A stretch of DNA of 64,000 bases from an uncultured Chromatiaceae bacterium (GCA_964605155.1 CAZSAK010000012.1:16746-80745), one strand, 5' to 3'; counted from the first letter of the stretch, positions 1 through 18,850 are shown. Numbers and translations: made by a program. Notes: generated by a model from the letters alone, not told the origin.

Positions 1-683
1 CTACGCCGTTGACCTCCGCCGCCGACATTATTGCGCTCGTGGCATTGCTGGCATTGGCGCGTTTCTTTACCGCACTTGGTGCCATGGATGTCGGCACCGC
101 TTTCGGTGGCATGGGTGCCAGCCGGGAGATGACCTTCGCCGCGTTGACGGAACCCGCATTGTTGATGAGTATATTTGTTCTCTCCATGGTGGCACACAGC
201 ACGAATATGACAGCCATGATCGATATCGTGCTTAACACTGGCCTCGGTCTGCGTCCGTCATTGGCCTTTGCCCTCGCCGCCCTGGGCCTGGTGACCATCG
301 CCGAGACAGGCCGCATTCCAGTGGACAATCCGGCCACTCATCTGGAATTGACCATGGTCCACGAGGCTATGATCCTGGAATACTCCGGACGTTACCTGGC
401 ACTTATCGAGTGGGCCAACCAGATCAAACTATTGCTGTTTGCCACCCTGATACTCAATCTGTTTTTCCCATGGGGAATGGCCGGCAGTCCCGATCCCCTC
501 TATATGGTGATCGCCGCTGTTGCATGGTTCGGCAAGCTGCTAGTGCTGTTTGTGTTACTGGCACTGTTTGAAACCTGGATGGCAAAGATGCGCATCTTTC
601 GCGTGCCGGAGTACCTTGGACTGGCATTCCTGCTGGCAATACTGGGTATGCTGACCCACTATATTCTGGAGGTTGGCGTGTAA
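1..683 (+). CDS. Hydrogenase-4/formate hydrogenlyase membrane subunit, HyfC/HycD (NuoH-like), C-terminal part. The gene is truncated by the window start.
   Basis: The ORF runs from base 9 to 683 with no upstream start inside the window. It is a hydrophobic polytopic protein. The segment LELTMVHEAMILEYSGRYLALIEWANQIKLL resembles the conserved HycD/NuoH C-terminal region. Its stop codon overlaps the start of the next gene, suggesting translational coupling. Confidence 0.6.
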   Translation, partial: TPLTSAADIIALVALLALARFFTALGAMDVGTAFGGMGASREMTFAALTEPALLMSIFVLSMVAHSTNMTAMIDIVLNTGLGLRPSLAFALAALGLVTIAETGRIPVDNPATHLELTMVHEAMILEYSGRYLALIEWANQIKLLLFATLILNLFFPWGMAGSPDPLYMVIAAVAWFGKLLVLFVLLALFETWMAKMRIFRVPEYLGLAFLLAILGMLTHYILEVGV

Positions 684-1339
684 TGCAGGTCACACTCTTG
701 CAGCAATGGGTAGGTGTTGCGGCAGCTATGATGTTACTGGTTGTATTTGCGCTGCTGGCGCAACGCCACATGCATGCCCTGCTGCGCTGGTTTGCGCTTC
801 AGGGTATTGTGCTGGCGTTGACCTCGGCGCTGGTCGCAAATGTCGCTGACGTGCCTGAGCTATATATCTCAGCAATACTTGCGCTTATCCTCAAAGGTGT
901 ACTGTTACCATGGATGTTATGGCGCATCGTGATCAATCTTGGCATGCACCGTGAAGTTGAGCCCCTGGTCAATGTATCGGTGACATTGCTGATTGGTGCC
1001 GCGCTGGTGCTGTTCTCGTTTTATGTCAGCCTGCCTATTGAAAAGCTCTCACAGCTGGTAACACGCAACACCATTGCCATTGCACTGGCATGCGTACTAC
1101 TCAGCATGCTGATGATGATCACACGCCGCAAGGCAATCACCCAGGTAGTCGGCTTTCTCGCCATGGAAAACGCCCTATTCTTCACTGCAACATCCACAAC
1201 CTATGGTATGCCGTTGCTGGTGGAGATCGGGGTGGCATTCGACGTCCTGATCGCAGCACTGGTATTTGGCCTGTTCTTCTTCCAGATCCGCAAAACGTTT
1301 GATTCGCTCAATCTCGAAGACCTGGAGGATAGACAGTGA
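683..1339 (+). CDS. Hydrogenase-4 component E-like integral membrane subunit (HyfE family)
   Basis: 218 aa, several transmembrane helices. It lies between the NuoH-like and NuoM/N-like genes, as hyfE does in hyf operons. Start and stop overlap the neighbouring genes (ATGA-type coupling). Confidence 0.55.
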   Translation: MQVTLLQQWVGVAAAMMLLVVFALLAQRHMHALLRWFALQGIVLALTSALVANVADVPELYISAILALILKGVLLPWMLWRIVINLGMHREVEPLVNVSVTLLIGAALVLFSFYVSLPIEKLSQLVTRNTIAIALACVLLSMLMMITRRKAITQVVGFLAMENALFFTATSTTYGMPLLVEIGVAFDVLIAALVFGLFFFQIRKTFDSLNLEDLEDRQ

Positions 1340-2799
1340 ATCTATTCGATCTGCTCCTGGGCGCGCCATTAATTACCAGTGTCATCATGGCGTTCATGGG
1401 TCATACCCGCAGCGCAACCAGCGTAAATATCGCCGCCAGCGCGATAGCGCTGATCACCGCACTTAGCCTTGCATACCGGGTATTACAACTGGGTTCTTTC
1501 ACCGCCCACGGCCAACTTTTCTTTCTTGATGCCTATAATGTATTTCTGCTTTCATTGACGGCCTTTGTAGCCACTACGACTGCCATCTTTTCAGGCCCGT
1601 ACATGTTGCATGAACAACAGATCGGGAGGGTAACAGCAAACCGCCTTCGCCTGTATCACTCCATGTTCCAGCTGTTTGTGTTCGGCATGTACCTCGTCCT
1701 CACCACGAATAATCTCGGTGTGATGTGGATAGCACTCGAACTTGCAACGCTGGCAACGGTACTGCTCGTGTCACTTTATCGCACTCCTGCGGCTATTGCT
1801 GCCGCCTGGAAATATTTCATTATCTGTGGCGTGGGCATAGCACTTGCCCTGTTTGGCACGATTCTTATTTTTGCAACCTCATCCGACGTACTCGGCCATG
1901 GCAACGACGCCCTGACCTGGACTTTGCTCTATGACAATGCCGGTCAACTTGCCCCACGTGTCATGACAATCGCCTTTGTGTTCCTGATCGTCGGTTACGG
2001 TACAAAAGTAGGTCTTGTACCGATGCACACCTGGTTACCGGACGCCCATGGTGAAGGACCGACCCCAATATCGGCGGTGCTCTCAGGTCTGTTGTTGAAT
2101 ATCGCGCTCTATGCCCTGGTGCGCTGCAAGACACTGGTCGATGGTGCGACCCAGGGTGACCTGGCCGGTAATCTAATGATGGGTTTCGGGATGTTGTCCG
2201 TGCTGGTGGCAGCCCTGTCACTACATCGTCAACGTGATGTCAAACGCATGTTTTCATTTTCTTCCATTGAACATATGGGCCTTATGACATTTGCCTTTGG
2301 CATCGGTACGCCGTTGGCCAATTTTGCAGGGCTGTTGCACATGACAGCACACTCGCTGGTTAAGTCAGGCATCTTCTTTACCGTCGGACATGCGGCACAG
2401 GCCATGGGGACTCAACAGATGATCAATATTCGCGGACTGGTGAGCCATCATCCCGGCATTGGCTGGGGATTGTTGATCGGCACCGTGGCGATTGCTGGTT
2501 TCCCACCCTTCGGAGTTTTTACCAGTGAATTCCTGTTATTTACTGCGGCATTACATACCCATCCATGGGTCGTTGTCCCATTGTTACTGGGACTGGTAGT
2601 GGCATTCGCCGGACTGTTCCGCCACGTGCAGCCGATGGCATTCGGCGTGGTGCCTGACAACGCCGCGTCAATCAAAATCAACATGCTGCCCGTCTATGTT
2701 CATCTCGGTCTGGCATTGATATTGGGGCTTGCCCTTCCGCCTTTTCTGGCCGACTGGTACCAAACCGCCGCCTACCTGTTGCACGGTACTGCGCGATGA
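1336..2799 (+). CDS. NuoM/NuoN-family proton-pumping antiporter-like subunit (HyfF/HyfB-like)
   Basis: 487 aa polytopic protein. It carries the complex I antiporter-subunit signature WLPDAHGEGPTPISAVLSG, followed by a TM-rich region. Its coding frame overlaps the following gene. Confidence 0.8.
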   Translation: MNLFDLLLGAPLITSVIMAFMGHTRSATSVNIAASAIALITALSLAYRVLQLGSFTAHGQLFFLDAYNVFLLSLTAFVATTTAIFSGPYMLHEQQIGRVTANRLRLYHSMFQLFVFGMYLVLTTNNLGVMWIALELATLATVLLVSLYRTPAAIAAAWKYFIICGVGIALALFGTILIFATSSDVLGHGNDALTWTLLYDNAGQLAPRVMTIAFVFLIVGYGTKVGLVPMHTWLPDAHGEGPTPISAVLSGLLLNIALYALVRCKTLVDGATQGDLAGNLMMGFGMLSVLVAALSLHRQRDVKRMFSFSSIEHMGLMTFAFGIGTPLANFAGLLHMTAHSLVKSGIFFTVGHAAQAMGTQQMINIRGLVSHHPGIGWGLLIGTVAIAGFPPFGVFTSEFLLFTAALHTHPWVVVPLLLGLVVAFAGLFRHVQPMAFGVVPDNAASIKINMLPVYVHLGLALILGLALPPFLADWYQTAAYLLHGTAR

Positions 2800-4361
2800 T
2801 ATTCGCACTGAGTAAATTTCTGGCCACACTCCTTACCGAGGCCGATATCGCATGTAAATTATTACCCGGCCAACCACCTACTCTGTATATAACTATCGAT
2901 CAGTGGCTATTGACGGCAAAGATTGCAAGAGAGGCGAAACTTCGGCTGGCAGCACTCTGGGCAACACAGGAAAACGATGGTTATTGCGTACATGCAGCGT
3001 TTGCCCGACGGGGCCAAGGTTACGCACTGGTGCAATCATCGCTGGATGTAAATGCCGTCGGGTTTCCCAGTATAACATCACACTATGTTGCCGCGGTACG
3101 CATGGAGCGCATCATGCATGATATGTTCGGTCTCGTGCCCACAGATAATCCCGACCTGCGTCCATGGCTCAAACACGAACACTGGCCATCGCATACCTTT
3201 GCATTGCGAAAGGAATTTCCAGCTACGACTGAATTATCGCGGGCTGAAGGTCGTTATCCTTTTATTGAAGCGGAAGGTGATGGGGTCTATGAGATCCCAG
3301 TCGGCCCGGTGCATGCAGGCATTATCGAGCCGGGGCATTTTCGCTTTCTTGCCGTAGGCGAACAGATTTTAAATCTGGAAGAGCGGCTGGGTTATGTCCA
3401 CAAGGGAATCGAAAAAGGCATGGAAGGACGTGACGTGTTCAGCGCTGCACGCCTTGCAGCACGTGTCTCGGGCGACGCTACAGTCGCGCACACATGGGCC
3501 TTTTGCCAGGCCACAGAACAGGCTGCGGGGATCGAGATTCCACCACGCGCATTGACCATCCGTGCCGTCCTGTGTGAGCGCGAACGTATGGCGAATCATA
3601 TCGGGGACATTGGTGCCATCTGCAACGATGCGTCATGGATATTCATGCACATGCAGTGTCAACGCTTGCGTGAGGAACTGGCACGTATACACCGCAGGAT
3701 ATTTGGTCATCGTCTGCTGATGGACTGCGTGGTACCAGGCGGGATCAAAGACGATACGAATATTGATGATGTACAGCTACTCAGGATTCAAACACGAAAT
3801 ATCGCTGACGAGATGCTGGAGTTATATAACACCTATGAGGACCATACGCCTATCCGCGAACGGGTCATTGATTCCGGCAACATCAGGGCTACTGATGCGG
3901 TTGATCTAGGGCTGCTGGGTTACGCCGGCCGCAGTGCTGAGTTTGATACCGATGCGCGACGCGACGCAGCGTATGCGCCGTATGATCAATATCCGCCACA
4001 GGTTAAGGTATGTCGTGGTGGTGATGTGGCCGCACGCTTGTGGGTAAGGTTCCAGGAAATCCAGGAAAGTGCAAGCCTGATAGATACAATGTTGCGTAAC
4101 CTGCCTGATGGACCGATACTGACCCCATGGAAAATGCCTCAGCAGACTAGTTGCGGTTTTGCCGCCATTGAATCATGGCGCGGGGAAATTGTTCTGTGGT
4201 TACGACTTTCGCAAGATAACCTCATCGACCGTTGTTATATCCGTGACCCCTCTATGATCAACTGGCTTGGTCTGGAGCTGGCGGCACGTAAAGTTCCTGT
4301 ACCGGACTTCCCGCTCAACAACAAATCGTTCAACTGCTCATACTCCGGACACGACCTATGA
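2796..4361 (+). CDS. Group-4 [NiFe]-hydrogenase large-subunit homolog (HyfG/HycE-like, NuoC+NuoD fusion) that lacks the NiFe-binding cysteines (Ehr-type)
   Basis: 521 aa. The region ARVSGDATVAHTWAFCQATEQAAGIEIPPRALTIRAV aligns with the HycE N-terminal motif RICGICGFAHSTAYCQA...IRAI, but the Cys-x-x-Cys pair is replaced by Ser...Ala. The C-terminus IRDPSMINW stands in place of the DPCxxC motif. The gene sits between NuoM/N-like and NuoB-like subunits. Confidence 0.8.
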   Translation: MIFALSKFLATLLTEADIACKLLPGQPPTLYITIDQWLLTAKIAREAKLRLAALWATQENDGYCVHAAFARRGQGYALVQSSLDVNAVGFPSITSHYVAAVRMERIMHDMFGLVPTDNPDLRPWLKHEHWPSHTFALRKEFPATTELSRAEGRYPFIEAEGDGVYEIPVGPVHAGIIEPGHFRFLAVGEQILNLEERLGYVHKGIEKGMEGRDVFSAARLAARVSGDATVAHTWAFCQATEQAAGIEIPPRALTIRAVLCERERMANHIGDIGAICNDASWIFMHMQCQRLREELARIHRRIFGHRLLMDCVVPGGIKDDTNIDDVQLLRIQTRNIADEMLELYNTYEDHTPIRERVIDSGNIRATDAVDLGLLGYAGRSAEFDTDARRDAAYAPYDQYPPQVKVCRGGDVAARLWVRFQEIQESASLIDTMLRNLPDGPILTPWKMPQQTSCGFAAIESWRGEIVLWLRLSQDNLIDRCYIRDPSMINWLGLELAARKVPVPDFPLNNKSFNCSYSGHDL

Positions 4362-4371
4362 AGATAGAAAG

Positions 4372-4884
4372 ATGAAAATATTCCGCAAGATTGTTCATAC
4401 CGGTCTGATTACCGAACCCTTGGGATATGCGGAACAGGAGATTGAGGAACTGGGCGTCAGGTTATCGGAAATGGTATTGCACCGGTTCCGGGGATCGCTC
4501 GCCATCCGTATGGTGGATGCGGGGTCATGTAATGGTTGTGAACTGGAGATCCATGCCACTAACAATCCGTACTATGACCTTGAACGCTTCGGTGCTCACT
4601 TCGTGGCTTCACCACGCCATGCAGATATTCTGTTGGTGACGGGACCAGTAACACGCAACATGGAAATGGCGCTTAAGATGACCTATGACGCGACACCCGA
4701 TCCCAAGCTAGTGGTTGCTGTGGGCGAATGTGCGGCATGCGGCGGCGAATTCGGCTGCTCATATGCATCGCTTGGCAAAGTCAGTAATATCATACCCGTG
4801 AATATCGTTGTACACGGCTGTCCGCCGAATCCTACTGACATCATACGCGGAATCCTCGCCGCCGTGGAAACAAATACCACTTGA
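4372..4884 (+). CDS. Hydrogenase small subunit / NuoB-like [4Fe-4S] subunit (HyfI/HycG-like)
   Basis: The motifs GSCNGCE, GECAACGG and HGCPPNP match the NuoB/HycG cluster-N2 cysteine pattern. The start was chosen at MKIFRK (ATG at 4372). The six-frame ORF extends further upstream and overlaps HyfG. Confidence 0.8.
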   Translation: MKIFRKIVHTGLITEPLGYAEQEIEELGVRLSEMVLHRFRGSLAIRMVDAGSCNGCELEIHATNNPYYDLERFGAHFVASPRHADILLVTGPVTRNMEMALKMTYDATPDPKLVVAVGECAACGGEFGCSYASLGKVSNIIPVNIVVHGCPPNPTDIIRGILAAVETNTT

Positions 4885-4954
4885 TCAGTCAATGCGGGTG
4901 AGGCCTAACAACCCCCAAGTAAACTAGCGCTGAAACACGGTGTTCTTGCAAACC

Positions 4955-5536
4955 TCAGTCATGATGATGGTCTTCATCTTCACCATCGTGATTATCATCC
5001 CCATGATTCGACATCGCCCCCATCGGTGTTTCGGAATCCGCCTCGCCATGGCTATGGCCATCACTGCCATGATGATGTTCATCAAGGTTCGGTAGCGAGA
5101 TCACCCCCAGACCATGCCGGAAGACGAGTTCCGCGCCATGCCATGCGGTCGCGACGAGCAGGCCCGCCGCCAGTAAGGCGGCCGACAGAAACAGGGCACT
5201 AACCTGCCGGGGAGGCCGGTATTTGCGCCACGACCACACTGCAAGCACCGCGACAACGGCGAATGTCACCAGTGCGAGGTTACGATGTTCCAGCATCACT
5301 ACATGGGCGGGGTCATCATGCTTGACGGTATTGAATGCGTGCCATCCGGCACCAATCGTCATGATCGTCACGATAGCACCCAGCCAGAGATTCCACAGCG
5401 CCACCGTGAGCAGTTGCTGTTTCAGGCTCGCATGCATCACAAAACGCGTCAAGATCAACAATCCTACAGAACTACCAAGCAGCCCCAGTGTGAAATGGAC
5501 CAATATGGGGTGATAGTTTGGAATAATCTCGATCAT
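4955..5536 (-). CDS. Integral membrane protein, possibly DUF2231-type, with a C-terminal His/Asp-rich tail
   Basis: 193 aa. The N-terminus reads HPILVHFTLGLL and about four TM helices follow. The C-terminus reads HHHGSDGHSHGEADSE...NHGDDNHDGEDEDHHHD. The gene is convergent with the hyf-like operon. Confidence 0.55.
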   Translation of the reverse strand: MIEIIPNYHPILVHFTLGLLGSSVGLLILTRFVMHASLKQQLLTVALWNLWLGAIVTIMTIGAGWHAFNTVKHDDPAHVVMLEHRNLALVTFAVVAVLAVWSWRKYRPPRQVSALFLSAALLAAGLLVATAWHGAELVFRHGLGVISLPNLDEHHHGSDGHSHGEADSETPMGAMSNHGDDNHDGEDEDHHHD

Positions 5537-5625
5537 TTCATATACCTTGTATTCGGATCTAAGACTTGATCAAGATGAAGTATACAAGCAAAATTCTCAA
5601 TCCCGTTCATGATTACCAGATCGCA

Positions 5626-6795
5626 TTATTGGATATACCCGTACTCAATATTGAGGATAGACGATCGCTCACCGATATTATCGTTGAATTTTGCGTCCAG
5701 CGAAAACGCGATTCCGACTTGTACGGTATTATCCTCACCACCGCCATACAAGGCATCGCCATATTGCGTATGGATCAGTTCAGTCAAGATGTCGACGCCC
5801 TGGCCCAGGCGGTACACAAACGACGGCACAATACTCCACTGCGTCGCCGACGTCACATCCGGATAGTCCTTGTATCCCAGCGATAGTGATGCCTGCCATC
5901 GCGTCAACAGGTTGGGTCTTGAAGTAAAGCGCCACCCAGCCACCAAAGAGGTCGATTTCGCGCGCGCCTGATTGGCAACGTCGTTGACAGGGCCATTCAG
6001 ATCTCCTGTGGTGATGCCGTCTATACCTTCGTTGAAGATGGTTTGTACGGCCATCGACCAGTTGGCGCGGGGATCAAGGTTGAGATTCAGTTCAGCACCT
6101 GCGATGACGGCCTTCATCCACTCATCACCCGAAGTAGTGGTCACCTGCTGGGTATCCAGCAGTATACCGGCATGGCCCAGTCTCTTTACATAACGCAATT
6201 CAGCGGGCAGTTCAAATTGATAACCCGCTCCGTAACTGTCGAATCCTCCCGATGCCGGCACACCTGTATCGTCACCACGCATTCCGGTCCAGATATTGAT
6301 GCTTTGATAGCGGCGATCGACAAACCAGTCAAACGAGAAAATGCGTGCATGTATCTGATCAAACTCGGTACTTGATGATGCGTTGCCCACATGGGTATAA
6401 CTGAGCAGATCAGCATCATGCGGCGTGGGGAATTCGATCAGGGTATTCGGCAACAGGGTACGCCCGATTTGCACCTCTATATCACGGTTCCACATAAACA
6501 CATAAAATTTATGAAATCGAACCTCGTTCTCATTCTCTTCAAGGCCGATCACTCCGCCGGCAACACCCTGTTCATAGAGCCGCTTGTCAAGCCGCATCAT
6601 CAACAACGAGTCCCGTATGTTGATTTCACTGTCCCTGTCGGGATCTGAATCATGGTCGACGATATCGATCGTACTGATCACCCGGCCACCCAAGGTAATA
6701 CGCGGCACCACCTCCCGGTCGACCTCCAGGGCGAAGGCCGGCGGGATTGCGGTTATGAAAACCAGAACGAACAGGATATATCTTTTCATCAACAT
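5626..6795 (-). CDS. Outer-membrane beta-barrel protein, tentatively a CopB-like copper-resistance outer-membrane protein
   Basis: The start was chosen at MLMKRYILFVLVFITAIPPAFA, a signal peptide, with a GGAGGA ribosome-binding site 5 nt upstream. The protein is rich in alternating aromatic and polar beta-strand segments. It lies 16 bp downstream of the multicopper oxidase gene on the same strand. Confidence 0.5.
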   Translation of the reverse strand: MLMKRYILFVLVFITAIPPAFALEVDREVVPRITLGGRVISTIDIVDHDSDPDRDSEINIRDSLLMMRLDKRLYEQGVAGGVIGLEENENEVRFHKFYVFMWNRDIEVQIGRTLLPNTLIEFPTPHDADLLSYTHVGNASSSTEFDQIHARIFSFDWFVDRRYQSINIWTGMRGDDTGVPASGGFDSYGAGYQFELPAELRYVKRLGHAGILLDTQQVTTTSGDEWMKAVIAGAELNLNLDPRANWSMAVQTIFNEGIDGITTGDLNGPVNDVANQARAKSTSLVAGWRFTSRPNLLTRWQASLSLGYKDYPDVTSATQWSIVPSFVYRLGQGVDILTELIHTQYGDALYGGGEDNTVQVGIAFSLDAKFNDNIGERSSILNIEYGYIQ

Positions 6796-6811
6796 GGTGA
6801 TCCTCCGATAG

Positions 6812-8128
6812 TCACTGATCGACAGAAACAGCTGGTACATAGCTGGGTTCGAAATCCTCATACTCCAGCAGGGTAAGGGCACCGCCCGGGTATATACCGT
6901 TGTTACGCGCCTGAGTCGTTTTATGATCGTGAAACGTCCAGTATCCCGGGTTGTCACCATAGATCATGATGTCGTAGGTGCCTCCGGGTTCGACATGGAT
7001 GGTGTTGATATGCCTTGGATCGGGCAGGTCGTTACCGTCCTGCGCCACCCACCAGAAATCATGGCCATGCAGATGCATGTGATGACTCTGGCTGCTGGCG
7101 CTGATCAGGCGGAGGCGAATCCATTCACCCTGTTTAATCCCGATACGCCGGGTAGCCGGATAGGATTTACCGTTGATACCGAAGAAGTTAGGCCTGAACG
7201 GTATGCGATTACTTCGGCCTTGCAGATACGGGGGCACGTAATCATCATTCCGATACGCCTCGAGGAATGCCTGATAAGTCTTAAAGAAACCGTGGGTCAT
7301 CGGGTCAAGCATCCCCTTGGCCATCAGGAGATTGACCTGTTTCATGCCTTCCAACAGACCATTCATCTCTTCACGGGCAAAGTCAACATCCCATGACTCG
7401 AGCACCAGCGTGTATTCCCGTTCGTATGGAAAACGTTCCTTGAGGTGTTCGTTCCTGCGTTGGATGATGAAGGCGCCGTGCATACCGGTCGAAGCATGCA
7501 ATGGCGTACCCCAGTGACAATGGTACCAGCGCGTGCCGGCCGGCTTTGCCTGAAAGCGGTAGACAAAGGTCTGGCCTGGATGAACCGGATCCTGCGTGAT
7601 CATCGGCACGCCGTCCATGGTGTAGGGAACGGCAAGGCCGTGCCAGTGGATGGTGTGCATCTCTTCGGTCTTGTTGGTGAAGTTGACCTTGATCCAGTCA
7701 CCCTCGGTCACATTGAACTCGGGTCCCGGGACCTGGCCGTTAAAGACGAACATATGTACCTGTATACCCGGCAGGATTTCATGCCGGGCGATCTTCACCT
7801 CTATGGAAAACTCCTTGTACTTCACCTCGTCATCGCGCGGCGCACCTGGCGGCTCGATCGTCATGCCCGGCTCCATGTTATGGCCCGGCGTAAACATCAT
7901 GGAATGATAGTCTTCCGTCATGTCCATCGCCTGGTGATCCGCCAAGCCGTGTTGACCGTGTCCCTCCGGCATGGGGTATCCACTGCGTGCCGACAACGCA
8001 CCACCGGTAAATACCGCAGTTGCACGCAGGAAATTACGCCGTGTTATCAGCCTTCCGGATTGCTGATCCCGTCTTTTACTTCCGGCACTCACTTGATGAA
8101 GCCGTTCTTTCCCGGTGTCTTTCATCAT
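6812..8128 (-). CDS. Tat-secreted multicopper oxidase (CopA/CueO-like)
   Basis: It has a twin-arginine signal (RRNFLRATAVFTGGALSA). The copper-ligand motifs HWHG, HCHWG...H and HMHLHGHDFWW are present. Confidence 0.8.
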   Translation of the reverse strand: MMKDTGKERLHQVSAGSKRRDQQSGRLITRRNFLRATAVFTGGALSARSGYPMPEGHGQHGLADHQAMDMTEDYHSMMFTPGHNMEPGMTIEPPGAPRDDEVKYKEFSIEVKIARHEILPGIQVHMFVFNGQVPGPEFNVTEGDWIKVNFTNKTEEMHTIHWHGLAVPYTMDGVPMITQDPVHPGQTFVYRFQAKPAGTRWYHCHWGTPLHASTGMHGAFIIQRRNEHLKERFPYEREYTLVLESWDVDFAREEMNGLLEGMKQVNLLMAKGMLDPMTHGFFKTYQAFLEAYRNDDYVPPYLQGRSNRIPFRPNFFGINGKSYPATRRIGIKQGEWIRLRLISASSQSHHMHLHGHDFWWVAQDGNDLPDPRHINTIHVEPGGTYDIMIYGDNPGYWTFHDHKTTQARNNGIYPGGALTLLEYEDFEPSYVPAVSVDQ

Positions 8129-8237
8129 GACCTCCGCCTAGGAAATGTTTATTAGATATTTTCAGTGCGCGGCATCAACCGATGGATTTCCACGCTGTCT
8201 AACTGGATAGGTTATGTGTGGCGCTTGGCCACAAGGA

Positions 8238-8612
8238 TCAGGCGCTGTGGATAGGAGGTTTGATATCGACGGGAATAAAGATGCTAACGCTGTGAACGGG
8301 CAGGTTTAACAGTCGTTCATGAACAAGAGATGTAACATGTGCACCGGTGATCGAAACCATCATGTAACAATGAGAACAGGACTGACATTGTCCTGCATGA
8401 TGACTGTCGTGCGGTGAGCTGGAAAACGGATCGTGGTTGACGGGGCCGATATCGTGTTGCGCAGTCATATCATGTGACTGGTATGCATGGGGGACATTGC
8501 CCGCATGGATGGATTCCTGCACATTCAATCCGGCATGACAATTCATGACGGGCGTGATGGCGATCACCAGCACTATCAATATATGAATTGTTTTTCTGAA
8601 TCGAGGAATCAT
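8238..8612 (-). CDS. Small secreted His/Cys-rich protein, a putative periplasmic metal-binding protein
   Basis: It has a signal peptide (MIPRFRKTIHILIVLVIAITPVMNCHA). The mature part, about 100 aa, contains many His residues and a CQSCSHC motif. It lies between cbbR and the multicopper oxidase on the same strand. Confidence 0.4.
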   Translation of the reverse strand: MIPRFRKTIHILIVLVIAITPVMNCHAGLNVQESIHAGNVPHAYQSHDMTAQHDIGPVNHDPFSSSPHDSHHAGQCQSCSHCYMMVSITGAHVTSLVHERLLNLPVHSVSIFIPVDIKPPIHSA

Positions 8613-8693
8613 GATGCACACTATCTCAGCTCTGCCTACATCATCATATTCCATTGCATGGAAAGGAACAAGTCACGCTTATATTCATACGCA

Positions 8694-9608
8694 TCAATCA
8701 CCACCCGGCATATGCCACAGGGACTTGGCCTCTTTCAGGACGAAATCCTTGAATGCCTGTGTGATCGGTGAGAGGCGTTTACCCTTGCGATGAACGACAT
8801 ACCATTGGCGCATGATAGGAAACGATTCGACATCGAGCACCACCAGGTGATGGGTTTGCAATTCGAGTTCGAGAGTGTGCAGGGAGACGATGCCCAGACC
8901 CAGACCGGCCTGTACTGCCTGCTGGATGGCCTCATTACTGGTCATTACCATGCCGGTGGTAAGATGGATGCCCTTTTCATTGAAAAAACGCTCCATCGCA
9001 ATGCGAGTACCCGATACGGCTTCACGCACCACAAAGGTTTCGCCCTGCAACTCGGTCAATGGGATGTGTTTACGCCGCGCAAACGGATGATCAGGCGCCG
9101 CAATCACTACCAAAGGATTATCCATGAAGGGCTCGGCATCAAGATCAGTTCCCTCTGGTGGTTTTCCCATGATGACCAGATCGGTCTCATTGGCAGAGAG
9201 TTGCTGTAACAGATTCTCACGGTTGGTAACGTCAAGGCTGACGGTCACGCCTTTCATGCGTACATTAAAGATTGCCAGTAACCGGGTACTGAAGTAATTG
9301 GCCGTACTCGCGACCGAGACAACCAATCTGCCGCGTTTTACACCTTTCATATCCTCGATAACCGTCTCGGCCTCCGCCAGTTGCTGGGCAATCGTGCGAC
9401 TGTAATGAAACATCTCCCGACCGGCCTCGGTAAGATAGATCTTCTTGCCGAGGCGTTCGAACAACGGCAGGCCGATATTGGCTTCCAGTTGCTTGATCTG
9501 CATCGAGACGGCCGGTTGCGATAGATAGAGCTCCTCCGCCGCATGCGTATAACTCAATAATCTTGCTACAGATTCAAAGATTTTCAGCTGATGCAGGGTG
9601 ACATGCAT
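8694..9608 (-). CDS. cbbR: LysR-family transcriptional regulator of the RuBisCO operon (CbbR)
   Basis: The N-terminal helix-turn-helix reads LHQLKIFESVARLLSYTHAAEELYLSQPAVSMQIKQLE. The gene is divergently transcribed from cbbL across an AT-rich intergenic region. Confidence 0.85.
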   Translation of the reverse strand: MHVTLHQLKIFESVARLLSYTHAAEELYLSQPAVSMQIKQLEANIGLPLFERLGKKIYLTEAGREMFHYSRTIAQQLAEAETVIEDMKGVKRGRLVVSVASTANYFSTRLLAIFNVRMKGVTVSLDVTNRENLLQQLSANETDLVIMGKPPEGTDLDAEPFMDNPLVVIAAPDHPFARRKHIPLTELQGETFVVREAVSGTRIAMERFFNEKGIHLTTGMVMTSNEAIQQAVQAGLGLGIVSLHTLELELQTHHLVVLDVESFPIMRQWYVVHRKGKRLSPITQAFKDFVLKEAKSLWHMPGGD

Positions 9609-9844
9609 AATATAATTATATATAAATAAATATTTATGTTAAATATAAATTATATTTATTTTACATTATAATTTATTCCCGTATGATTTGTATCACAATA
9701 AGCCTGAGGCAGCAGGAGTTGACTATAATCAGGAATCAGGAAAGCCGTTTGGCACTGTTGACCCGCTTCACTGAATAACAAGACTTATAAATTAAAGTTG
9801 TATCGAAACCGAATACCAATCTTTTATATAGAGGAGAATTGATC
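9609..9844. promoter_or_regulatory. cbbR-cbbL divergent promoter/operator region
   Basis: Roughly 80 bp are almost pure A/T in a genome of about 50% GC. It contains the perfect 16-bp palindrome ATAAATAAATATTTAT at about 9622-9637 and several T-N11-A-like LysR motifs. A GAGGAG ribosome-binding site lies 8 nt before the cbbL ATG. Confidence 0.6.
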
Positions 9845-11263
9845 ATGGCAAAGACCTATACCGCGGGTGTCAAGGATTACCGCGAAACCTACTGGATGCC
9901 CGACTACACCCCGTCGGATACAGATATCCTGGCGTGCTTCAAAGTCACGCCACAACCCGGGGTCCCACGTGAGGAAGCTGCAGCCGCGGTAGCCGCCGAG
10001 TCATCGACCGGTACCTGGACAACGGTCTGGACCGACCTGTTGACGGACCTCGATTATTACAAGGGACGCGCCTATGCGATTGAGGATGTACCTGGTGATG
10101 ATGAATGTTTTTATGCCTTCATCGCCTATCCGATTGACCTGTTCGAAGAAGGTTCCGTCGTCAACGTATTCACTTCACTGGTCGGCAACGTATTCGGATT
10201 CAAGGCGCTGCGCAACCTGCGTCTCGAGGACGTTCGCTTCCCGATCGCCTATGTCAAAACCTGCGGTGGTCCGCCGAACGGCATACAGGTTGAACGTGAC
10301 ATCATGAATAAATATGGTCGTCCGCTGCTGGGTTGCACCATCAAACCCAAACTGGGCCTGTCTGCAAAAAACTATGGTCGTGCCGTCTATGAATGTCTGC
10401 GCGGCGGCCTGGACTTCACCAAGGATGATGAAAACGTCAATTCACAACCATTCATGCGCTGGAATCATCGTTTTGATTTTGTCATGGAGGCCATTGAAAA
10501 GGCCGAGAGGGAGACGGGTGAACGCAAGGGTCATTACCTAAATGTAACAGCACCCACACCGGAAGAGATGTACAGACGCGCAGAATATGCCAAGGAACTC
10601 GGCGCACCGATTATCATGCACGACTATATTACCGGAGGCTTCTGCGCCAACACAGGCCTGGCTAACTGGTGTCGTCAGAATGGCATGTTGCTGCATATTC
10701 ACCGCGCCATGCATGCTGTGCTCGACAGGCATCCGCGTCACGGCATCCATTTCCGGGTACTGGCCAAGATCCTGCGTCTATCAGGTGGTGATCATCTCCA
10801 CTCCGGCACCGTCGTCGGCAAGCTGGAAGGTGACCGCGAGGCGACACTGGGCTGGATCGATATCATGCGCGACAGCTTCATCAAGGAAGACCGCAGCCGC
10901 GGTATCTTCTTCGATCAGGACTGGGGTTCCATGCCCGGAGTATTGCCGGTCGCATCCGGTGGTATCCACGTATGGCATATGCCAGCGCTGGTCGCCATCT
11001 TCGGTGACGACTCCGTACTGCAATTCGGCGGCGGAACACTGGGTCACCCGTGGGGCAACGCAGCCGGTGCCGCGGCCAACCGTGTCTCGCTGGAAGCCTG
11101 TGTGGAGGCACGTAACCAGGGCCGTCAGATCGAGAAGGAAGGCAAGGAAATTCTCACCGAGGCTGCCAAACACAGTCCGGAACTCAAGATGGCGATGGAA
11201 ACCTGGAAAGAGATCAAGTTTGAATTCGATACGGTGGACAAACTGGACGTCGCCCACAAGTAA
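9845..11263 (+). CDS. cbbL: Ribulose-1,5-bisphosphate carboxylase/oxygenase large subunit, form IA
   Basis: The sequence is unmistakably RbcL: the form I N-terminus [21 protein letters not shown], the active-site stretch [20 protein letters not shown], and HRAMHAV with GGDHLHSGT. The C-terminus resembles form IA. Confidence 0.97.
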
Positions 11264-11351
11264 CAGGCAGACCATGCGCTGGTGCCTGAGTGCCAGCGCA
11301 TGGATACGACCATAACCTTTATTTACTGAAATCTATTTTGAGGATAACGAG

Positions 11352-11711
11352 ATGAGCACAATGCAAGACTACAGTTCAAGCCTGAGTGATCCGGCAAGCC
11401 GCAAGTTCGAGACCTTTTCATACCTGCCGGAGCTGGACAAGGATCAGATTCGCAAACAGGTGGAATACATAGTGAACAAGGGCTGGAATCCGGCCATCGA
11501 ACACACCGAGCCGGAAAACGCCTTCGATCACTACTGGTATATGTGGAAACTGCCAATGTTCGGCGAGACCGATGTGGATACAATACTGAACGAGGCCGAG
11601 GCCTGTCACAAAGCACATCCGGACCATCACGTACGCCTGGTCGGTTACGACAATTACAAACAGTCTCAGGGAACGGCCCTGGTAATCTTTCGTGGTCCCA
11701 TCAAGGTCTGA
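11352..11711 (+). CDS. cbbS: RuBisCO small subunit
   Basis: 119 aa and directly downstream of cbbL. It carries the characteristic FETFSYLP and [11 protein letters not shown] motifs and has a GAGGA ribosome-binding site. Confidence 0.95.
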
Positions 11712-11796
11712 TAGGCCGACCGCGTGAGGACAGGCCCTTGACTGTTGTTCGCGGTCAGGGGCTTTTTTTTATCCGTAATGTTATAACCGATGGAAT

Positions 11797-12603
11797 ATGA
11801 CTATGGACAATACTGAACAATACCGGATTCAAGAAGAACCCTATTATCTCCCTGTCGCCGACGAGGTAGAACTCTATAAAGCCGCATACGAAGCCCGCAT
11901 GCCTATGATGCTGAAGGGACCGACCGGCTGCGGCAAAACACGCTTTGTGGAATACATGGCCTGGAAACTGCAACGGCCCTTGATTACCGTGGCGTGCAAC
12001 GAGGACATGACGGCATCCGATCTGGTGGGCCGATATCTGCTGGATCCCGACGGCACTCGCTGGCAGGACGGACCACTTACCACAGCGGCTCGACTCGGTG
12101 CAATCTGTTATCTGGACGAGGTCGTCGAGGCCAGGCAGGACACCACCGTTGTTATCCATCCGCTTACCGATCATCGTCGCACGCTGCCACTTGAAAAAAA
12201 AGGTGAACTTGTCCATGCCCACGCTGATTTCCAGCTGGTGATATCCTACAATCCCGGCTATCAACATCTGATGAAGGATCTCAAACAATCCACCAAGCAA
12301 CGTTTCGGTGCCCTGGACTTTGCCTATCCCGACATTGAGGTCGAAACGAAAGTCGTCAGCCATGAAACCGGGGTGGATGAGGACACTGCGAACAAACTGG
12401 TCCAGATTGCCCATCGGGCACGCAATCTGAAAGGGCATGGTCTGGATGAAGGTCTTTCGACGCGACTACTGGTCTATGCCGGTATCCTTATCAGCAAGGG
12501 CATCGATGCCAGAACGGCATGCATGATGACACTGGTAAGGCCCATCACCGATGACCCGGATATGCGTGACACACTCGATGCGGCGGTCAGCACCTATTTC
12601 TAG
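11797..12603 (+). CDS. cbbQ: CbbQ, an AAA+ (MoxR-type) RuBisCO activase ATPase
   Basis: It has the Walker A motif [10 protein letters not shown], is 268 aa, and follows cbbS. Confidence 0.92.
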
Positions 12604-12618
12604 CCAGTTGCCTGTCTG

Positions 12619-18485: not shown

Positions 18486-18511
18486 TGTTTTATCCCCCTT
18501 ATTTTTGGGCT

Positions 18512-18850
<339 letters not shown>

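What the first reader, a model, noticed from the sequence alone, without database searches (positions are those of the whole stretch)
1..8128. A NiFe-less Hyf/Ehr membrane complex lies next to the RuBisCO (cbbR-cbbLSQO) locus and may serve as an energy-coupled inorganic-carbon or redox module
The hyfC-hyfE-hyfF-hyfG'-hyfI-like operon ends about 4.7 kb from cbbR. The cbb operon is of the CbbQ/CbbO (non-carboxysomal form IAq) type, and no carboxysome shell or carbonic-anhydrase genes are visible downstream. Complex-I-like modules with NuoL/M/N antiporter-like subunits are the engines of cyanobacterial NDH-1 CO2-uptake complexes, and the DAB DIC pumps also pair a NuoL/MnhA-like antiporter subunit with a carbonic-anhydrase-like subunit. 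By analogy, an Ehr complex placed beside RuBisCO could be an undescribed CO2-hydration or Ci-uptake system, or an ion-translocating module that feeds reductant to CO2 fixation. The operon also lacks a HycF/NuoI-like 2x[4Fe-4S] subunit between the large and small subunits, which is unusual for hyf/hyc operons. Upstream partners such as HyfA/B, an FdhF-like protein or a CupA/DabA-like protein may lie just outside the window.
Basis: inference. Interest (0 to 1): 0.7.

Follow-up and report, generated by a model that had tools for sequence, protein, structure and literature searches.

The report
Ehr/Hyq complex beside RuBisCO genes
This is an ordinary member of the already described, nickel-iron-free "Ehr/Hyq" family of complex-I-like membrane enzymes, and comparison with about 95 related loci gives no good evidence that its position near the RuBisCO genes reflects a role in carbon uptake.

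Summary
Window 1-4884 carries five genes of a hyfBCEFGI-type operon, followed by four genes on the opposite strand, then cbbR and cbbLSQO (form IA RuBisCO). There are no carboxysome, carbonic-anhydrase, DabA or CupA genes anywhere in the 64 kb.

A contig identical to the window start shows that only the HyfB/NuoL-like gene and the start of hyfC lie outside the window. Upstream of them is a 512-bp spacer and a divergent glycogen phosphorylase gene. There is no HyfA, FdhF, CupA or DabA.

The six-gene architecture defines the known Ehr (Geobacter ehrABCDLS) and Hyq (Azorhizobium hyqBCEFGI) family. Its features are:
- No HycF/NuoI-like subunit.
- All four NiFe cysteines replaced: Ser, Ser/Thr/Ala, Ser and Gly in 89 orthologues.
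- Four invariant cysteines for one [4Fe-4S] cluster in the small subunit.

Linkage to cbb is patchy:
- It is present in one relative with an 80%-identical large subunit.
- It is absent in seven other close relatives.
- It is not seen within the 3.4 kb available downstream in a 98%-identical strain.
- It occurs in 2 of 80 species-level loci, each arranged differently.

The family is common in organisms reported not to use the Calvin cycle (Methylobacter, Geobacter, Nitrospira, Nitrospina). The carbon-pump idea is therefore not supported. A generic redox-coupled ion-translocating role, with unknown substrate, remains the best reading.

The parts
1..683 (+). EhrB/HyfC/HyqC-like NuoH-type membrane subunit. 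Its 5' end is cut by the window edge. The full gene (315 aa) starts 265 nt before window position 1, and the EhrA/HyfB-like gene (669-672 aa) precedes it.
   Evidence: PF00146 NADHdh, E = 3.7e-22. L089 is 100% identical to window 1-1531 and supplies the missing 5' part and the upstream gene. That upstream gene passes the NCBIfam 'hydrogenase 4 subunit B' cut-off.
683..1339 (+). EhrC/HyfE/HyqE-like membrane subunit (218 aa)
   Evidence: NCBIfam NF008556 'hydrogenase 4 membrane subunit', E = 1e-24, below the curated cut-off. Conserved at this position in the related loci.
1336..2799 (+). EhrD/HyfF/HyqF-like antiporter-type subunit (487 aa, NuoM/N class)
   Evidence: PF00361, E = 1.2e-51. NCBIfam 'hydrogenase 4 subunit F', 718 bits against a cut-off of 543. 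The alignment to E. coli NuoM keeps the TM7 Lys and TM12 Glu, and the alignment to P. furiosus MbsH keeps the TM5 Glu. The TM8 Lys is Asn.
2796..4361 (+). EhrL/HyqG-like large subunit (521 aa), a NuoC-NuoD fusion homologous to HycE. All four NiFe cysteine ligands are replaced.
   Evidence: PF00329 + PF00346 + a weak PF00374 hit. Best solved relative is HycE, 7z0s_E, E = 1e-58. Ligand positions are S225, A228, S515 and G518, and these replacements hold across 89 orthologues.
4372..4884 (+). EhrS/HyqI-like NuoB-type small subunit (170 aa) with four cysteines for one [4Fe-4S] cluster
   Evidence: PF01058, E = 3.3e-31. Cys54, 57, 121 and 151 (numbered in the 171-aa translation of 4369-4884) are invariant in 81 orthologues. 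Gene start taken from the call on L001.
4955..5536 (-). DUF2231 membrane protein with a His/Asp-rich C-terminal tail, convergent with the Ehr operon. Not part of the complex.
   Evidence: PF09990, E = 6e-17. Found after Ehr only in the window's own clade (L085, L087, L090, L093, L099) and not in the 80 species-level loci.
5626..6795 (-). 389-aa protein with a signal-peptide-like N-terminus and no family match. Part of a strain-variable cassette.
   Evidence: No Pfam or NCBIfam hit. Gene limits from L001. Absent from L085 and L099.
6812..8128 (-). Multicopper oxidase with a twin-arginine signal (437-438 aa). Part of the strain-variable cassette.
   Evidence: PF07732 and PF07731. The sequence contains RRNFLRATAV.
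8238..8654 (-). Small His/Cys-rich protein with no family match
8694..9608 (-). cbbR, a LysR-type regulator divergent from cbbL
   Evidence: PF03466 + PF00126. Best NCBIfam match is CbbR, E = 2.7e-83, below the equivalog cut-off.
9609..9844 (.). AT-rich (28% G+C) cbbR-cbbL intergenic region with divergent promoter-like sites
9845..14970 (+). cbbL-cbbS-cbbQ-cbbO: form IA RuBisCO with the CbbQ/CbbO activase pair and no carboxysome genes
   Evidence: Pfam hits to RuBisCO_large, RuBisCO_small, AAA_5 + CbbQ_C, and VWA. The best solved relatives of CbbL are form IA enzymes.

Best explanation
Window 1-4884, together with about 2.3 kb just outside the window, is a self-contained six-gene operon. It encodes an Ehr/Hyq-type complex, which is a minimal relative of complex I and of the group 4 hydrogenases.

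Shown here:
- Two antiporter-like subunits (EhrA/HyfB-like and EhrD/HyfF-like).
- A NuoH-like subunit and a HyfE-like subunit.
- A NuoCD-like large subunit with no NiFe site.
- A NuoB-like small subunit carrying a single [4Fe-4S] cluster.

Inferred:
- The lone cluster passes electrons between a cytoplasmic low-potential carrier and a substrate bound in the very strongly conserved pocket that replaces the NiFe site. The carrier (ferredoxin- or flavodoxin-like) would dock where NuoI/HycF sits in larger relatives. The pocket lies at the interface of the large, small and NuoH-like subunits.
- That reaction is coupled to proton or sodium movement through the antiporter-like subunits.
- In an aerobic autotroph the reaction would probably run in reverse, using the ion gradient to make low-potential reductant.
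- The substrate is unknown.

The position next to cbbR-cbbLSQO is a lineage-restricted juxtaposition of separate transcription units. The two are separated by a DUF2231 gene and a strain-variable metal-homeostasis cassette. There is no evidence for a carbon-uptake machine.
For: Family identity:
- Domain content and gene order.
- The six-gene order is conserved in 64 of 70 loci from Zetaproteobacteria, Methylococcales, Nitrospirota, Geobacter/Geomonas, Rhizobiales, Burkholderiales and Acidithiobacillus.
- NiFe ligands are replaced in all 89 orthologues, while GPVHAGIIEPGHFRF and the C-terminal NKS-x-N-x-SYSG-x-DL are nearly invariant.
- The four EhrS cysteines are invariant.
- The antiporter TM5 Glu, TM7 Lys and TM12 Glu are kept.
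- Published descriptions match: Ehr (PMC6349859, PMC10284858, PMC12342949, PMC7894505), A. ferrooxidans hyfBCEFGI with a non-hydrogenase catalytic subunit (PMC7735108), and Azorhizobium Hyq (PMC2650096, PMC3357923).

Stand-alone unit:
- No recurrent redox or carbonic-anhydrase partner appears in the two nearest ORFs on either side in about 60-70 loci.
- In the window's own genome the upstream neighbour is a divergent glycogen phosphorylase gene.

No specific cbb link:
- Synteny data.
- The TNA-N7-TNA motif is 3-10 times rarer upstream of ehrA than in the cbbR-cbbL spacer, and the two regions share no significant motif.
Against: - One relative (L099, large subunit 80% identical) keeps Ehr-DUF2231-cbbR-cbbL, with only 746 nt between the Ehr operon and cbbR.
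- Two unrelated lineages, an Ectothiorhodospiraceae MAG (metagenome-assembled genome) and an Acidithiobacillus MAG, also have cbbQ/O within 10 kb. My rough estimate of the chance expectation is about 0.4 loci, so 2 of 80 is a weak excess (about p = 0.07). A loose functional association with CbbQ/O-type RuBisCO cannot be excluded.
- The electron-transfer mechanism is inferred, not shown.
- The complex I quinone ligands are not conserved: Nqo4 His38 aligns with Ile177 and Tyr87 with Gly226. Quinone may therefore not be the partner.
- For Azorhizobium Hyq the authors report H2 uptake and evolution phenotypes (PMC3357923). My reading does not explain them.
Confidence: 0.75

Rival explanations
1. 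One reading: the Ehr complex is an energy-coupled CO2-hydration or inorganic-carbon uptake system serving the neighbouring non-carboxysomal RuBisCO, by analogy with the cyanobacterial CO2-uptake form of NDH-1 (NDH-1MS, with CupA) or with DabAB.
For: - Adjacency to cbbR-cbbLSQO in the window and in L099.
- cbbQ/O within 10 kb in L030 and L057.
- No carboxysome or carbonic anhydrase in the 64 kb, so another carbon-concentrating device would be useful.
- SulP-family anion transporters sit directly upstream of Ehr in about 10 Methylococcales loci. They are below the cut-off for every specific SulP subfamily, BicA included.
Against: - No DabA (DUF2309), CupA/ChpXY or any carbonic-anhydrase family was found in the window, upstream in L089, or recurrently in the flanks of related loci.
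- The family is widespread in organisms which, to my knowledge, do not use the Calvin cycle: Methylobacter, Geobacter/Geomonas, Nitrospirota and Nitrospina.
- Seven of eight close relatives with enough flanking sequence lack the linkage, and a 98%-identical strain diverges straight after DUF2231.
- The units are separate, with opposite-strand genes between them.
- The invariant Fe-S cysteines point to redox chemistry, which DAB does not use.
Confidence: 0.05
2. In this lineage the Ehr complex is functionally tied to the Calvin cycle as a reductant or energy module. For example, it could use the ion gradient to produce low-potential electrons, or it could balance redox when RuBisCO is active, with loose co-localisation for co-regulation.
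For: - Conserved Ehr-DUF2231-cbbR-cbbL order in L099.
- A weak excess of cbbQ/O near Ehr in two other lineages.
- Many hosts of the family oxidise high-potential donors and need reverse electron flow: nitrite and iron oxidisers such as Nitrospina, Nitrospirota and Zetaproteobacteria.
Against: - Linkage is absent in most relatives and is broken by strain-variable cassettes.
- No shared regulatory motif was found.
- The Calvin cycle needs NAD(P)H and ATP, not ferredoxin (established biochemistry).
Confidence: 0.1
3. It is a true, unconventional hydrogenase, the 'endo-hydrogenase' proposed for Azorhizobium Hyq. In that model it oxidises or evolves H2 at the cytoplasmic face and exchanges electrons with quinone.
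For: - The gene set is the same as hyqBCEFGI.
- Deleting hyq slows diazotrophic growth, and H2 evolution at below 1 uM O2 was attributed to Hyq (PMC2650096, PMC3357923).
- The proton-pathway loop shared with HycE (EPGH) is invariant.
Against: - All four Ni-Fe cysteines are missing in 89 of 89 orthologues.
- The Hyq authors themselves call a NiFe site 'uncertain, if not unlikely' (PMC3357923).
- Ehr expression was not raised by H2 in Nitrospira moscoviensis (PMC12342949).
- The A. ferrooxidans subunits were not detected during growth on H2 (PMC7735108).
- No hyp maturation genes are in the 64 kb.
- The three cysteines said to be conserved in HyqG are not conserved family-wide: position 508 is Asn in the window protein and position 514 is Cys in only 39 of 89.
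Confidence: 0.07
4. It is a redox-silent or redox-regulated Mrp-like cation/proton antiporter, in which the large and small subunits are only a structural or sensory cap.
For: - Two Mrp/Nuo antiporter-like subunits dominate the complex.
- No electron-input module is encoded nearby.
Against: The four Fe-S cysteines and the pocket residues of the large subunit are invariant across phyla. That degree of conservation argues for catalysis rather than a relic.
Confidence: 0.05

Closest known systems
Ehr (Ech/energy-converting hydrogenase-related) complex, ehrA-D, ehrL, ehrS of Geobacter sulfurreducens (GSU0739-45), and the Ehr complexes reported in Nitrospira, Sulfobacillus, Margulisbacteria and others
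   Same: - Same six subunit types: NuoL-like, NuoH-like, HyfE-like, NuoM/N-like, a large subunit without CxxC motifs, and a NuoB-like small subunit.
- No NuoI/HycF-like subunit.
- Function unknown in the literature (PMC7894505, PMC10284858, PMC12342949, PMC4378227).
- Geobacter and Geomonas loci (L072, L032) share the gene order, 46% large-subunit identity and the replacement motifs.
   Different: - The host is an uncultured gammaproteobacterial autotroph.
- The large subunit clusters most closely (63-70% identity among named sequences) with Nitrospina/Nitrospinota sequences, then with Zetaproteobacteria at 52-57%.
- It lies beside a cbb locus.
Hyq 'endo-hydrogenase', hyqRBCEFGI of Azorhizobium caulinodans (AZC_4355-4360)
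   Same: - Identical structural gene order B-C-E-F-G-I.
- HyqG is a NuoC::D fusion lacking both CxxC motifs.
- HyqI has four conserved cysteines (PMC2650096, PMC3357923).
- Xanthobacteraceae, Bradyrhizobium and Rhodopseudomonas loci are in the same family.
   Different: - There is no hyqR-type regulator upstream in the window lineage.
- No nif context is visible.
- The HyqG cysteines described as conserved are only partly present.
- Identity to the Xanthobacter large subunit is 44%.
E. coli formate hydrogenlyase and hydrogenase-4 (Hyc/Hyf), group 4a [NiFe] hydrogenases
   Same: - Best solved homologue of the large subunit is HycE, 7z0s_E, E = 1e-58.
- The membrane subunits pass or approach the NCBIfam 'hydrogenase 4 subunit B/F/E' models.
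   Different: - No NiFe ligands.
- No HycF/HyfH, HyfA, HyfD or FdhF.
- No maturation protease or hyp genes nearby.
DAB (DabA/DabB) and cyanobacterial NDH-1MS (CupA/ChpY) inorganic-carbon pumps
   Same: They use a PF00361 antiporter-like subunit, and for NDH-1MS a complex-I-like scaffold. This is from my own knowledge of Desmarais et al. 2019 and Schuller et al. 2020, which I did not re-read here.
   Different: - The zinc-containing carbonic-anhydrase-like subunit that does the CO2 chemistry (DabA or CupA) is absent.
- Ehr instead has a redox module.
Pyrococcus furiosus MBS/Mbx (membrane-bound sulfane reductase)
   Same: - It is a NiFe-less descendant of a group 4 hydrogenase.
- Its antiporter-like subunit (6u8y_H) is the best solved match to EhrD.
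   Different: - MBS has 13 subunits, including a NuoI-like ferredoxin-type subunit and an Mrp module.
- Its large subunit matches EhrL only weakly (6u8y_L, E = 1e-14).

Membership tests
Ehr/Hyq complexes | Six-gene operon in the order NuoL-like, NuoH-like, HyfE-like, NuoM/N-like, large subunit, small subunit | tested here: met
   The window carries C-E-F-G-I. L089, identical in the overlap, supplies the B gene. The order is conserved in 64 of 70 related loci.
Ehr/Hyq complexes | Large subunit homologous to group 4 hydrogenase large subunits but lacking both CxxC NiFe-binding motifs | tested here: met
   S225, A228, S515 and G518 align with the HycE cysteines. The same holds in 89 orthologues.
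Ehr/Hyq complexes | NuoB-like small subunit keeping four cysteines for one [4Fe-4S] cluster | tested here: met
   Cys54, 57, 121 and 151 are invariant in 81 orthologues.
Ehr/Hyq complexes | Direct orthology to the named reference operons (GSU0739-45, AZC_4355-60) | tested here: inconclusive
   The reference sequences themselves were not available. Loci from the same genera or families (Geobacter sp., Geomonas, Xanthobacter flavus) share the order, the motifs and 44-46% large-subunit identity.
Group 4 [NiFe] hydrogenase (Hyf/Hyc formate hydrogenlyase) | RxCGxCxxxH and DPCxxCxxH/R motifs that bind the Ni-Fe centre | tested here: not met
Group 4 [NiFe] hydrogenase (Hyf/Hyc formate hydrogenlyase) | 2x[4Fe-4S] HycF/HyfH subunit, HyfA/HycB, and an FdhF partner | tested here: not met
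   A 10-nt gap separates the large- and small-subunit genes. The upstream neighbour is glycogen phosphorylase. No such family appears recurrently in the flanks.
DAB inorganic-carbon pump | DabA (DUF2309, beta-carbonic-anhydrase-like) encoded next to the PF00361 subunit | tested here: not met
   No such hit among the window ORFs, in the L089 upstream region or in the flank census.
Cyanobacterial NDH-1MS/MS' CO2-uptake complex | CupA/CupB (ChpY/X) subunit attached to a specialised NdhD/NdhF pair on an NDH-1 core | tested here: not met
   No ChpXY family hit. There are only six subunits, with no NdhA-K-type core beyond NuoH, NuoB and NuoCD homologues.
Respiratory complex I | NuoEFG input module, NuoI, NuoA/J/K, and the quinone ligands His38 and Tyr87 (Nqo4 numbering) | tested here: not met
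   The subunits are absent. In the ungapped alignment to 2fug_4, His38 aligns with Ile177 and Tyr87 with Gly226.
Form IAq RuBisCO locus | Form IA cbbL-cbbS followed by cbbQ-cbbO, with no carboxysome genes and a divergent cbbR | tested here: met

The most novel reading that the evidence does not exclude
In a subset of autotrophs with CbbQ/O-type (non-carboxysomal) form IA RuBisCO, the Ehr complex may have been recruited to support CO2 fixation. The candidates are the window clade, an Ectothiorhodospiraceae MAG and an Acidithiobacillus MAG. The complex could act as a gradient-driven source of low-potential reductant or, less likely, as part of an undescribed inorganic-carbon uptake route. That would give the first physiological handle on a family whose function has been unknown since 2005.
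Probability: 0.1. Interest if true: 0.7.

Novelty: new member of a known kind. Interest (0 to 1): 0.3.

Why it matters
Ehr/Hyq complexes are widespread and still have no assigned function. About half of Nitrospirales genomes carry one (PMC12342949). The truncated genome scan here returned at least 597 confirmed matches, and the 80 loci kept include nitrite oxidisers, iron oxidisers, methanotrophs, rhizobia and Geobacter. A real tie to RuBisCO would have been a useful clue.

The comparative evidence says this locus does not provide that clue. The linkage is patchy, and the subunit needed for CO2 hydration is missing.

What the analysis does add:
- Family-wide replacement motifs for the lost NiFe site: R-V-S-G-D-[STA]-T-V-A-[HY] and a C-terminal N-K-S-x-N-x-S-Y-S-G-x-D-L.
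- An invariant GPVHAGIIEPGHFRF loop.
- Four invariant Fe-S cysteines.

Together these argue that the complex is an active redox enzyme with an unknown substrate rather than a decayed hydrogenase.

Tried and rejected
- The exact-sequence look-up of the large subunit returned only a 7-kb contig with no upstream extension. The look-up of EhrD found nothing. The look-up of EhrC succeeded.
- The metagenome scan with the single protein gave only 4 loci.
Its best hit was only 52-53% identical, so the nearest genomes, including Nitrospina at 63%, were not returned.
- The first literature search was swamped by 'electronic health record' papers.
- I searched for a shared CbbR-type motif between the ehrA upstream region and the cbbR-cbbL spacer. 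One shared 11-mer was found, which is not above shuffled controls (mean 0.31). This test is uninformative rather than negative.
- The SulP transporters next to Ehr in Methylococcales were considered as support for bicarbonate transport. I rejected this because they are confined to one order and fall far below the BicA, DauA and SulP cut-offs.
- The three cysteines described as conserved in HyqG (PMC3357923) were considered as an alternative metal site. They are not conserved family-wide.
- I did not run structure prediction. The tools return no coordinates, so pocket geometry could not have been measured.
- My crude ORF caller produced spurious antisense ORFs in high-GC loci (clusters 5 and 7). 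These were ignored.

Full report
**What is in the window**

ORF listing and Pfam/NCBIfam scans show five co-directional, tightly packed genes at 1-4884:
- a NuoH/HyfC-like gene running off the window start (1-683)
- a HyfE-like gene (683-1339)
- a HyfF/NuoM-like antiporter-type gene (1336-2799)
- a 521-aa NuoC-NuoD fusion homologous to HycE (2796-4361)
- a NuoB/HycG-like gene (4372-4884)

Four minus-strand genes follow:
- DUF2231 with a His-rich tail (4955-5536)
- a 389-aa secreted protein with no family match (5626-6795)
- a multicopper oxidase with a twin-arginine signal (6812-8128)
- a small His/Cys-rich protein (8238-8654)

Then come cbbR (8694-9608, minus strand) and cbbL, cbbS, cbbQ and cbbO (9845-14970). 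Among solved structures, CbbL is closest to the form IA enzyme of Halothiobacillus neapolitanus.

After cbbO come a PilZ gene, a response regulator and amtB-glnK. Pfam scans of the non-overlapping ORFs of at least 150 aa across the remaining 64 kb found housekeeping genes only. They found no BMC shell, CsoS, carbonic-anhydrase, DUF2309/DabA or ChpXY/CupA families. One caveat applies: coordinates 4955-8128 are not part of the complex.

**The NiFe site is gone, but the protein is not decayed**

The HMMER alignment to E. coli HycE (7z0s_E, E = 1e-58) places RVSGDATVAH opposite RVCGICGFAH. It places the C-terminal NCSYSG opposite DPCYSC.

I extracted 89 orthologous large subunits from the fetched loci. 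The four ligand positions are Ser (88/89), Ser/Thr/Ala, Ser (87/89) and Gly (88/89). None is ever Cys. In the same set the loop GPVHAGIIEPGHFRF is essentially invariant, and so is the C-terminal N-K-S-x-N-x-S-Y-S-G-x-D-L.

The small subunit keeps four invariant cysteines in 81 orthologues, which is the signature of one [4Fe-4S] cluster. The complex I quinone ligands are not kept: in the ungapped alignment to T. thermophilus Nqo4, His38 aligns with Ile177 and Tyr87 with Gly226. EhrD keeps the TM5 Glu, TM7 Lys and TM12 Glu of NuoM-type subunits but has Asn at the TM8 Lys position.

**What lies upstream of the window**

An exact-sequence look-up of the HyfE-like protein returned contigs from several sequencing runs. 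L089 comes from the same sample as L001, which is 99.99% identical to window 1512-8521. L089 is 100% identical to window 1-1531 and extends 3.9 kb further.

The extension holds the missing 265 nt of hyfC and a 669-672-aa HyfB/NuoL-like gene. That gene passes the NCBIfam 'hydrogenase 4 subunit B' cut-off. Beyond it are a 512-bp AT-rich spacer with no plausible ORF and a divergent glycogen phosphorylase gene. In L086 an acetate kinase gene follows the phosphorylase gene.

**The family**

A word-indexed search of 5.8 billion proteins found full-length relatives of the large subunit at 52-94% identity. Among those that carry an organism name, the closest are Nitrospinae/Nitrospina gracilis (62-70%), followed by Mariprofundus and other Zetaproteobacteria (52-57%).

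I examined the 80 loci kept. They come from:
- Zetaproteobacteria, Methylococcales and Nitrospirota
- Geobacter and Geomonas
- Chromatiales and other sulfur oxidisers
- Burkholderiales and Acidithiobacillus
- many Rhizobiales

tblastn with the window proteins shows the order C-E-F-G-I in essentially all of these loci. A HyfB-like gene sits directly upstream of HyfC in 64 of 70 loci, and the other six are cut by a contig end. The gap between the large- and small-subunit genes has a median of 17 nt, which leaves no room for a HycF/NuoI gene.

This is the architecture published as:
- Ehr (ehrA-D, L, S) in Geobacter (PMC7894505)
- the 'non-hydrogenase' hyfBCEFGI cluster of Acidithiobacillus ferrooxidans (PMC7735108)
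- hyqRBCEFGI in Azorhizobium caulinodans (PMC2650096, PMC3357923)

Reviews and genome papers state that the function of Ehr is unknown (PMC6349859, PMC10284858, PMC12342949, PMC10432482, PMC4378227).

**Is the link to cbb conserved?**

Close relatives:

| Locus | Large-subunit identity | What follows the Ehr operon |
|---|---|---|
| L099 | 80% | DUF2231, then cbbR (86%) and cbbL (95%); 746 nt from Ehr to cbbR; no multicopper-oxidase cassette |
| L085 | 98% (nucleotide level) | Diverges exactly at the end of DUF2231 (window 5537) into NfeD, YHS and a P-type ATPase |
| L083 | 84% | Peroxiredoxin and a pyridine-nucleotide disulfide oxidoreductase |
| L084, L094 | 71-73% | A metalloprotease |
| L098 | 71% | A GerE-type regulator and an ABC transporter |
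| L100 | 66% | Multicopper oxidase, two cytochromes c and a NirK-like gene |
| L101 | 64% | Tad pilus genes |
| L102 | 63% | Unrelated genes |

One of eight close relatives with enough flanking sequence therefore keeps the linkage.

Among the 80 species-level loci only two have cbb genes within 10 kb:
- L057 (Acidithiobacillus MAG) has cbbQ-cbbO upstream on the same strand. An XRE-cupin regulator gene lies in between.
- L030 (Ectothiorhodospiraceae MAG) has cbbO about 4 kb downstream, convergent with the Ehr operon.

The three arrangements all differ. I made a rough chance estimate, assuming about 40 Calvin-cycle genomes with about 1.5 cbb loci each and a target of about 25 kb in 3.5 Mb. That predicts about 0.4 loci, so observing 2 is a weak excess (about p = 0.07). 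This is my own estimate, not a tool result.

From general knowledge, many hosts of the family do not use the Calvin cycle at all: Methylobacter, Geobacter, Nitrospira and Nitrospina.

**Flanking genes across the family**

I scanned the two nearest ORFs on each side of the operon against Pfam, 104 upstream and 116 downstream. Few families recurred:
- SulP transporters: 12 ORFs, all in Methylococcales.
- XRE-type HTH regulators: 8 ORFs, some with a cupin domain, matching the position of hyqR.
- DUF2490: 7 ORFs, from the same methanotroph clade.

No formate dehydrogenase, NuoEF, ferredoxin, carbonic-anhydrase, DabA or RuBisCO family appeared among the 25 most frequent families listed on either side. 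The SulP proteins fall far below the BicA, DauA and SulP cut-offs.

**Regulation**

The cbbR-cbbL spacer is 28% G+C. It has divergent promoter-like sites and 2.1-2.7 TNA-N7-TNA motifs per 100 nt. The ehrA upstream regions have 0.2-0.8 per 100 nt. The single 11-mer shared by the two regions is not above shuffled controls. This is weak evidence against shared CbbR control.

**Host**

Window proteins occur on an 81.8-kb NCBI contig. The best named relatives of the PntB protein are 'MAG: Gammaproteobacteria bacterium' at 76-80% identity. The host is therefore an uncultured gammaproteobacterial autotroph.

**Most likely mechanism**

Shown:
- A six-subunit complex-I-like membrane complex.
- Two antiporter-like subunits with most of their charged transmembrane residues intact.
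- One Fe-S cluster.
- A strongly constrained pocket in place of the NiFe site.

Inferred:
- The single cluster sits where NuoB's cluster N2 sits. Because there is no NuoI/HycF subunit, it is reachable by a soluble low-potential carrier.
- It exchanges electrons with a substrate in the pocket.
- This exchange is coupled to ion movement.
- In aerobic lithoautotrophs the useful direction would be gradient-driven production of low-potential reductant.

The Azorhizobium data would also fit a role in low-potential electron supply: hyq belongs to the nif regulon, and its deletion slows growth only when the cells are fixing N2 (PMC2650096). The authors themselves interpret the data as H2 recycling. 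I put about 0.4-0.5 on this mechanistic reading, about 0.95 on family membership and about 0.85-0.9 on 'not a carbon pump'.

**Verdict**

- The locus is a correctly recognised, intact and ordinary member of a known but functionally unsolved family.
- Its neighbourhood with cbbLSQO is shared by one close relative and echoed loosely in two distant lineages.
- The linkage is absent in most relatives and interrupted by strain-variable metal-homeostasis genes.
- No subunit able to hydrate CO2 accompanies it.

Interest is modest. The residual novel reading, a link between Ehr and CbbQ/O-type RuBisCO, deserves a genome-wide co-localisation test before any experiment.

Noticed in passing
window 5537-8654; L085 9958-13372; L099 8179-8310: The stretch between DUF2231 and cbbR is a strain-variable metal-homeostasis slot. 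In the window it holds a 389-aa secreted protein, a twin-arginine multicopper oxidase and a small His/Cys-rich protein. In a 98%-identical strain it holds NfeD, YHS and a heavy-metal-type P-type ATPase. In L099 it is empty. The break point falls exactly at the end of the DUF2231 gene.
   Followed up: partly
window 6812-8128; L100 8568-11841; L057 12035-13702: Multicopper oxidase genes lie just downstream of the Ehr operon in three separate lineages. In L100 the set is a multicopper oxidase, two cytochromes c and a NirK-like protein, which resembles the ncgABC-nirK cluster of Nitrosomonas (from memory). This may be coincidence.
   Followed up: no
L005, L009, L011-L015, L027, L031, L053, about 2.7-4.7 kb in locus coordinates: SulP-family anion transporters, sometimes two in tandem, sit directly upstream of the Ehr operon and on the same strand in Methylococcales. 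A DUF2490 gene is directly downstream in many of the same loci. The SulP proteins are below the cut-off for the BicA, DauA and sulfate-permease models.
   Followed up: partly
L094 4390-4929, L098 4393-4932, L101 4387-4926, L002 4253-4807, L004 4167-4724, L057 4302-4847: An XRE-type HTH plus cupin regulator (about 180 aa) lies immediately upstream of ehrA in many lineages. Its stop overlaps the ehrA start in L094, L098 and L101. Rhizobiales have a shorter HTH_3 ORF in the same place, which matches the position of hyqR. The window lineage has no such gene in its 512-bp spacer.
   Followed up: partly
window 2796-4361 (residues 170-184 and 505-521): The large subunit's loop GPVHAGIIEPGHFRF is identical in 87 or more of 89 orthologues from several phyla, and the extreme C-terminus N-K-S-x-N-x-S-Y-S-G-x-D-L is nearly so. 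This is far stronger conservation than expected for a dead active site. The three cysteines reported as invariant in HyqG are not invariant: position 508 is Asn here, and position 514 is Cys in only 39 of 89.
   Followed up: yes
window 1336-2799 (around residue 253): In the antiporter-like EhrD subunit the TM8 lysine of NuoM (K265 in E. coli) aligns with Asn. The TM5 Glu, TM7 Lys and TM12 Glu are kept.
   Followed up: no
window 9839-9847: The mechanical ORF for cbbL starts at TTG 9839. An in-frame ATG at 9845, preceded by AGAGGAG, is the more likely start.
   Followed up: no
window 17169-18850; L083 811-2436; L094 2869-4065: amtB (with glnK in the window and in L083) lies near the Ehr operon in several members of this clade. 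It is upstream in L083 and L094, and in the window it is 12 kb downstream, beyond the cbb genes. This suggests local rearrangement around the cbb locus.
   Followed up: no
window 36780-37880 and 43944-46031: Two sizeable ORFs (366 and 695 aa) have no Pfam match. The second sits next to CheA-like and CheB-like genes.
   Followed up: no
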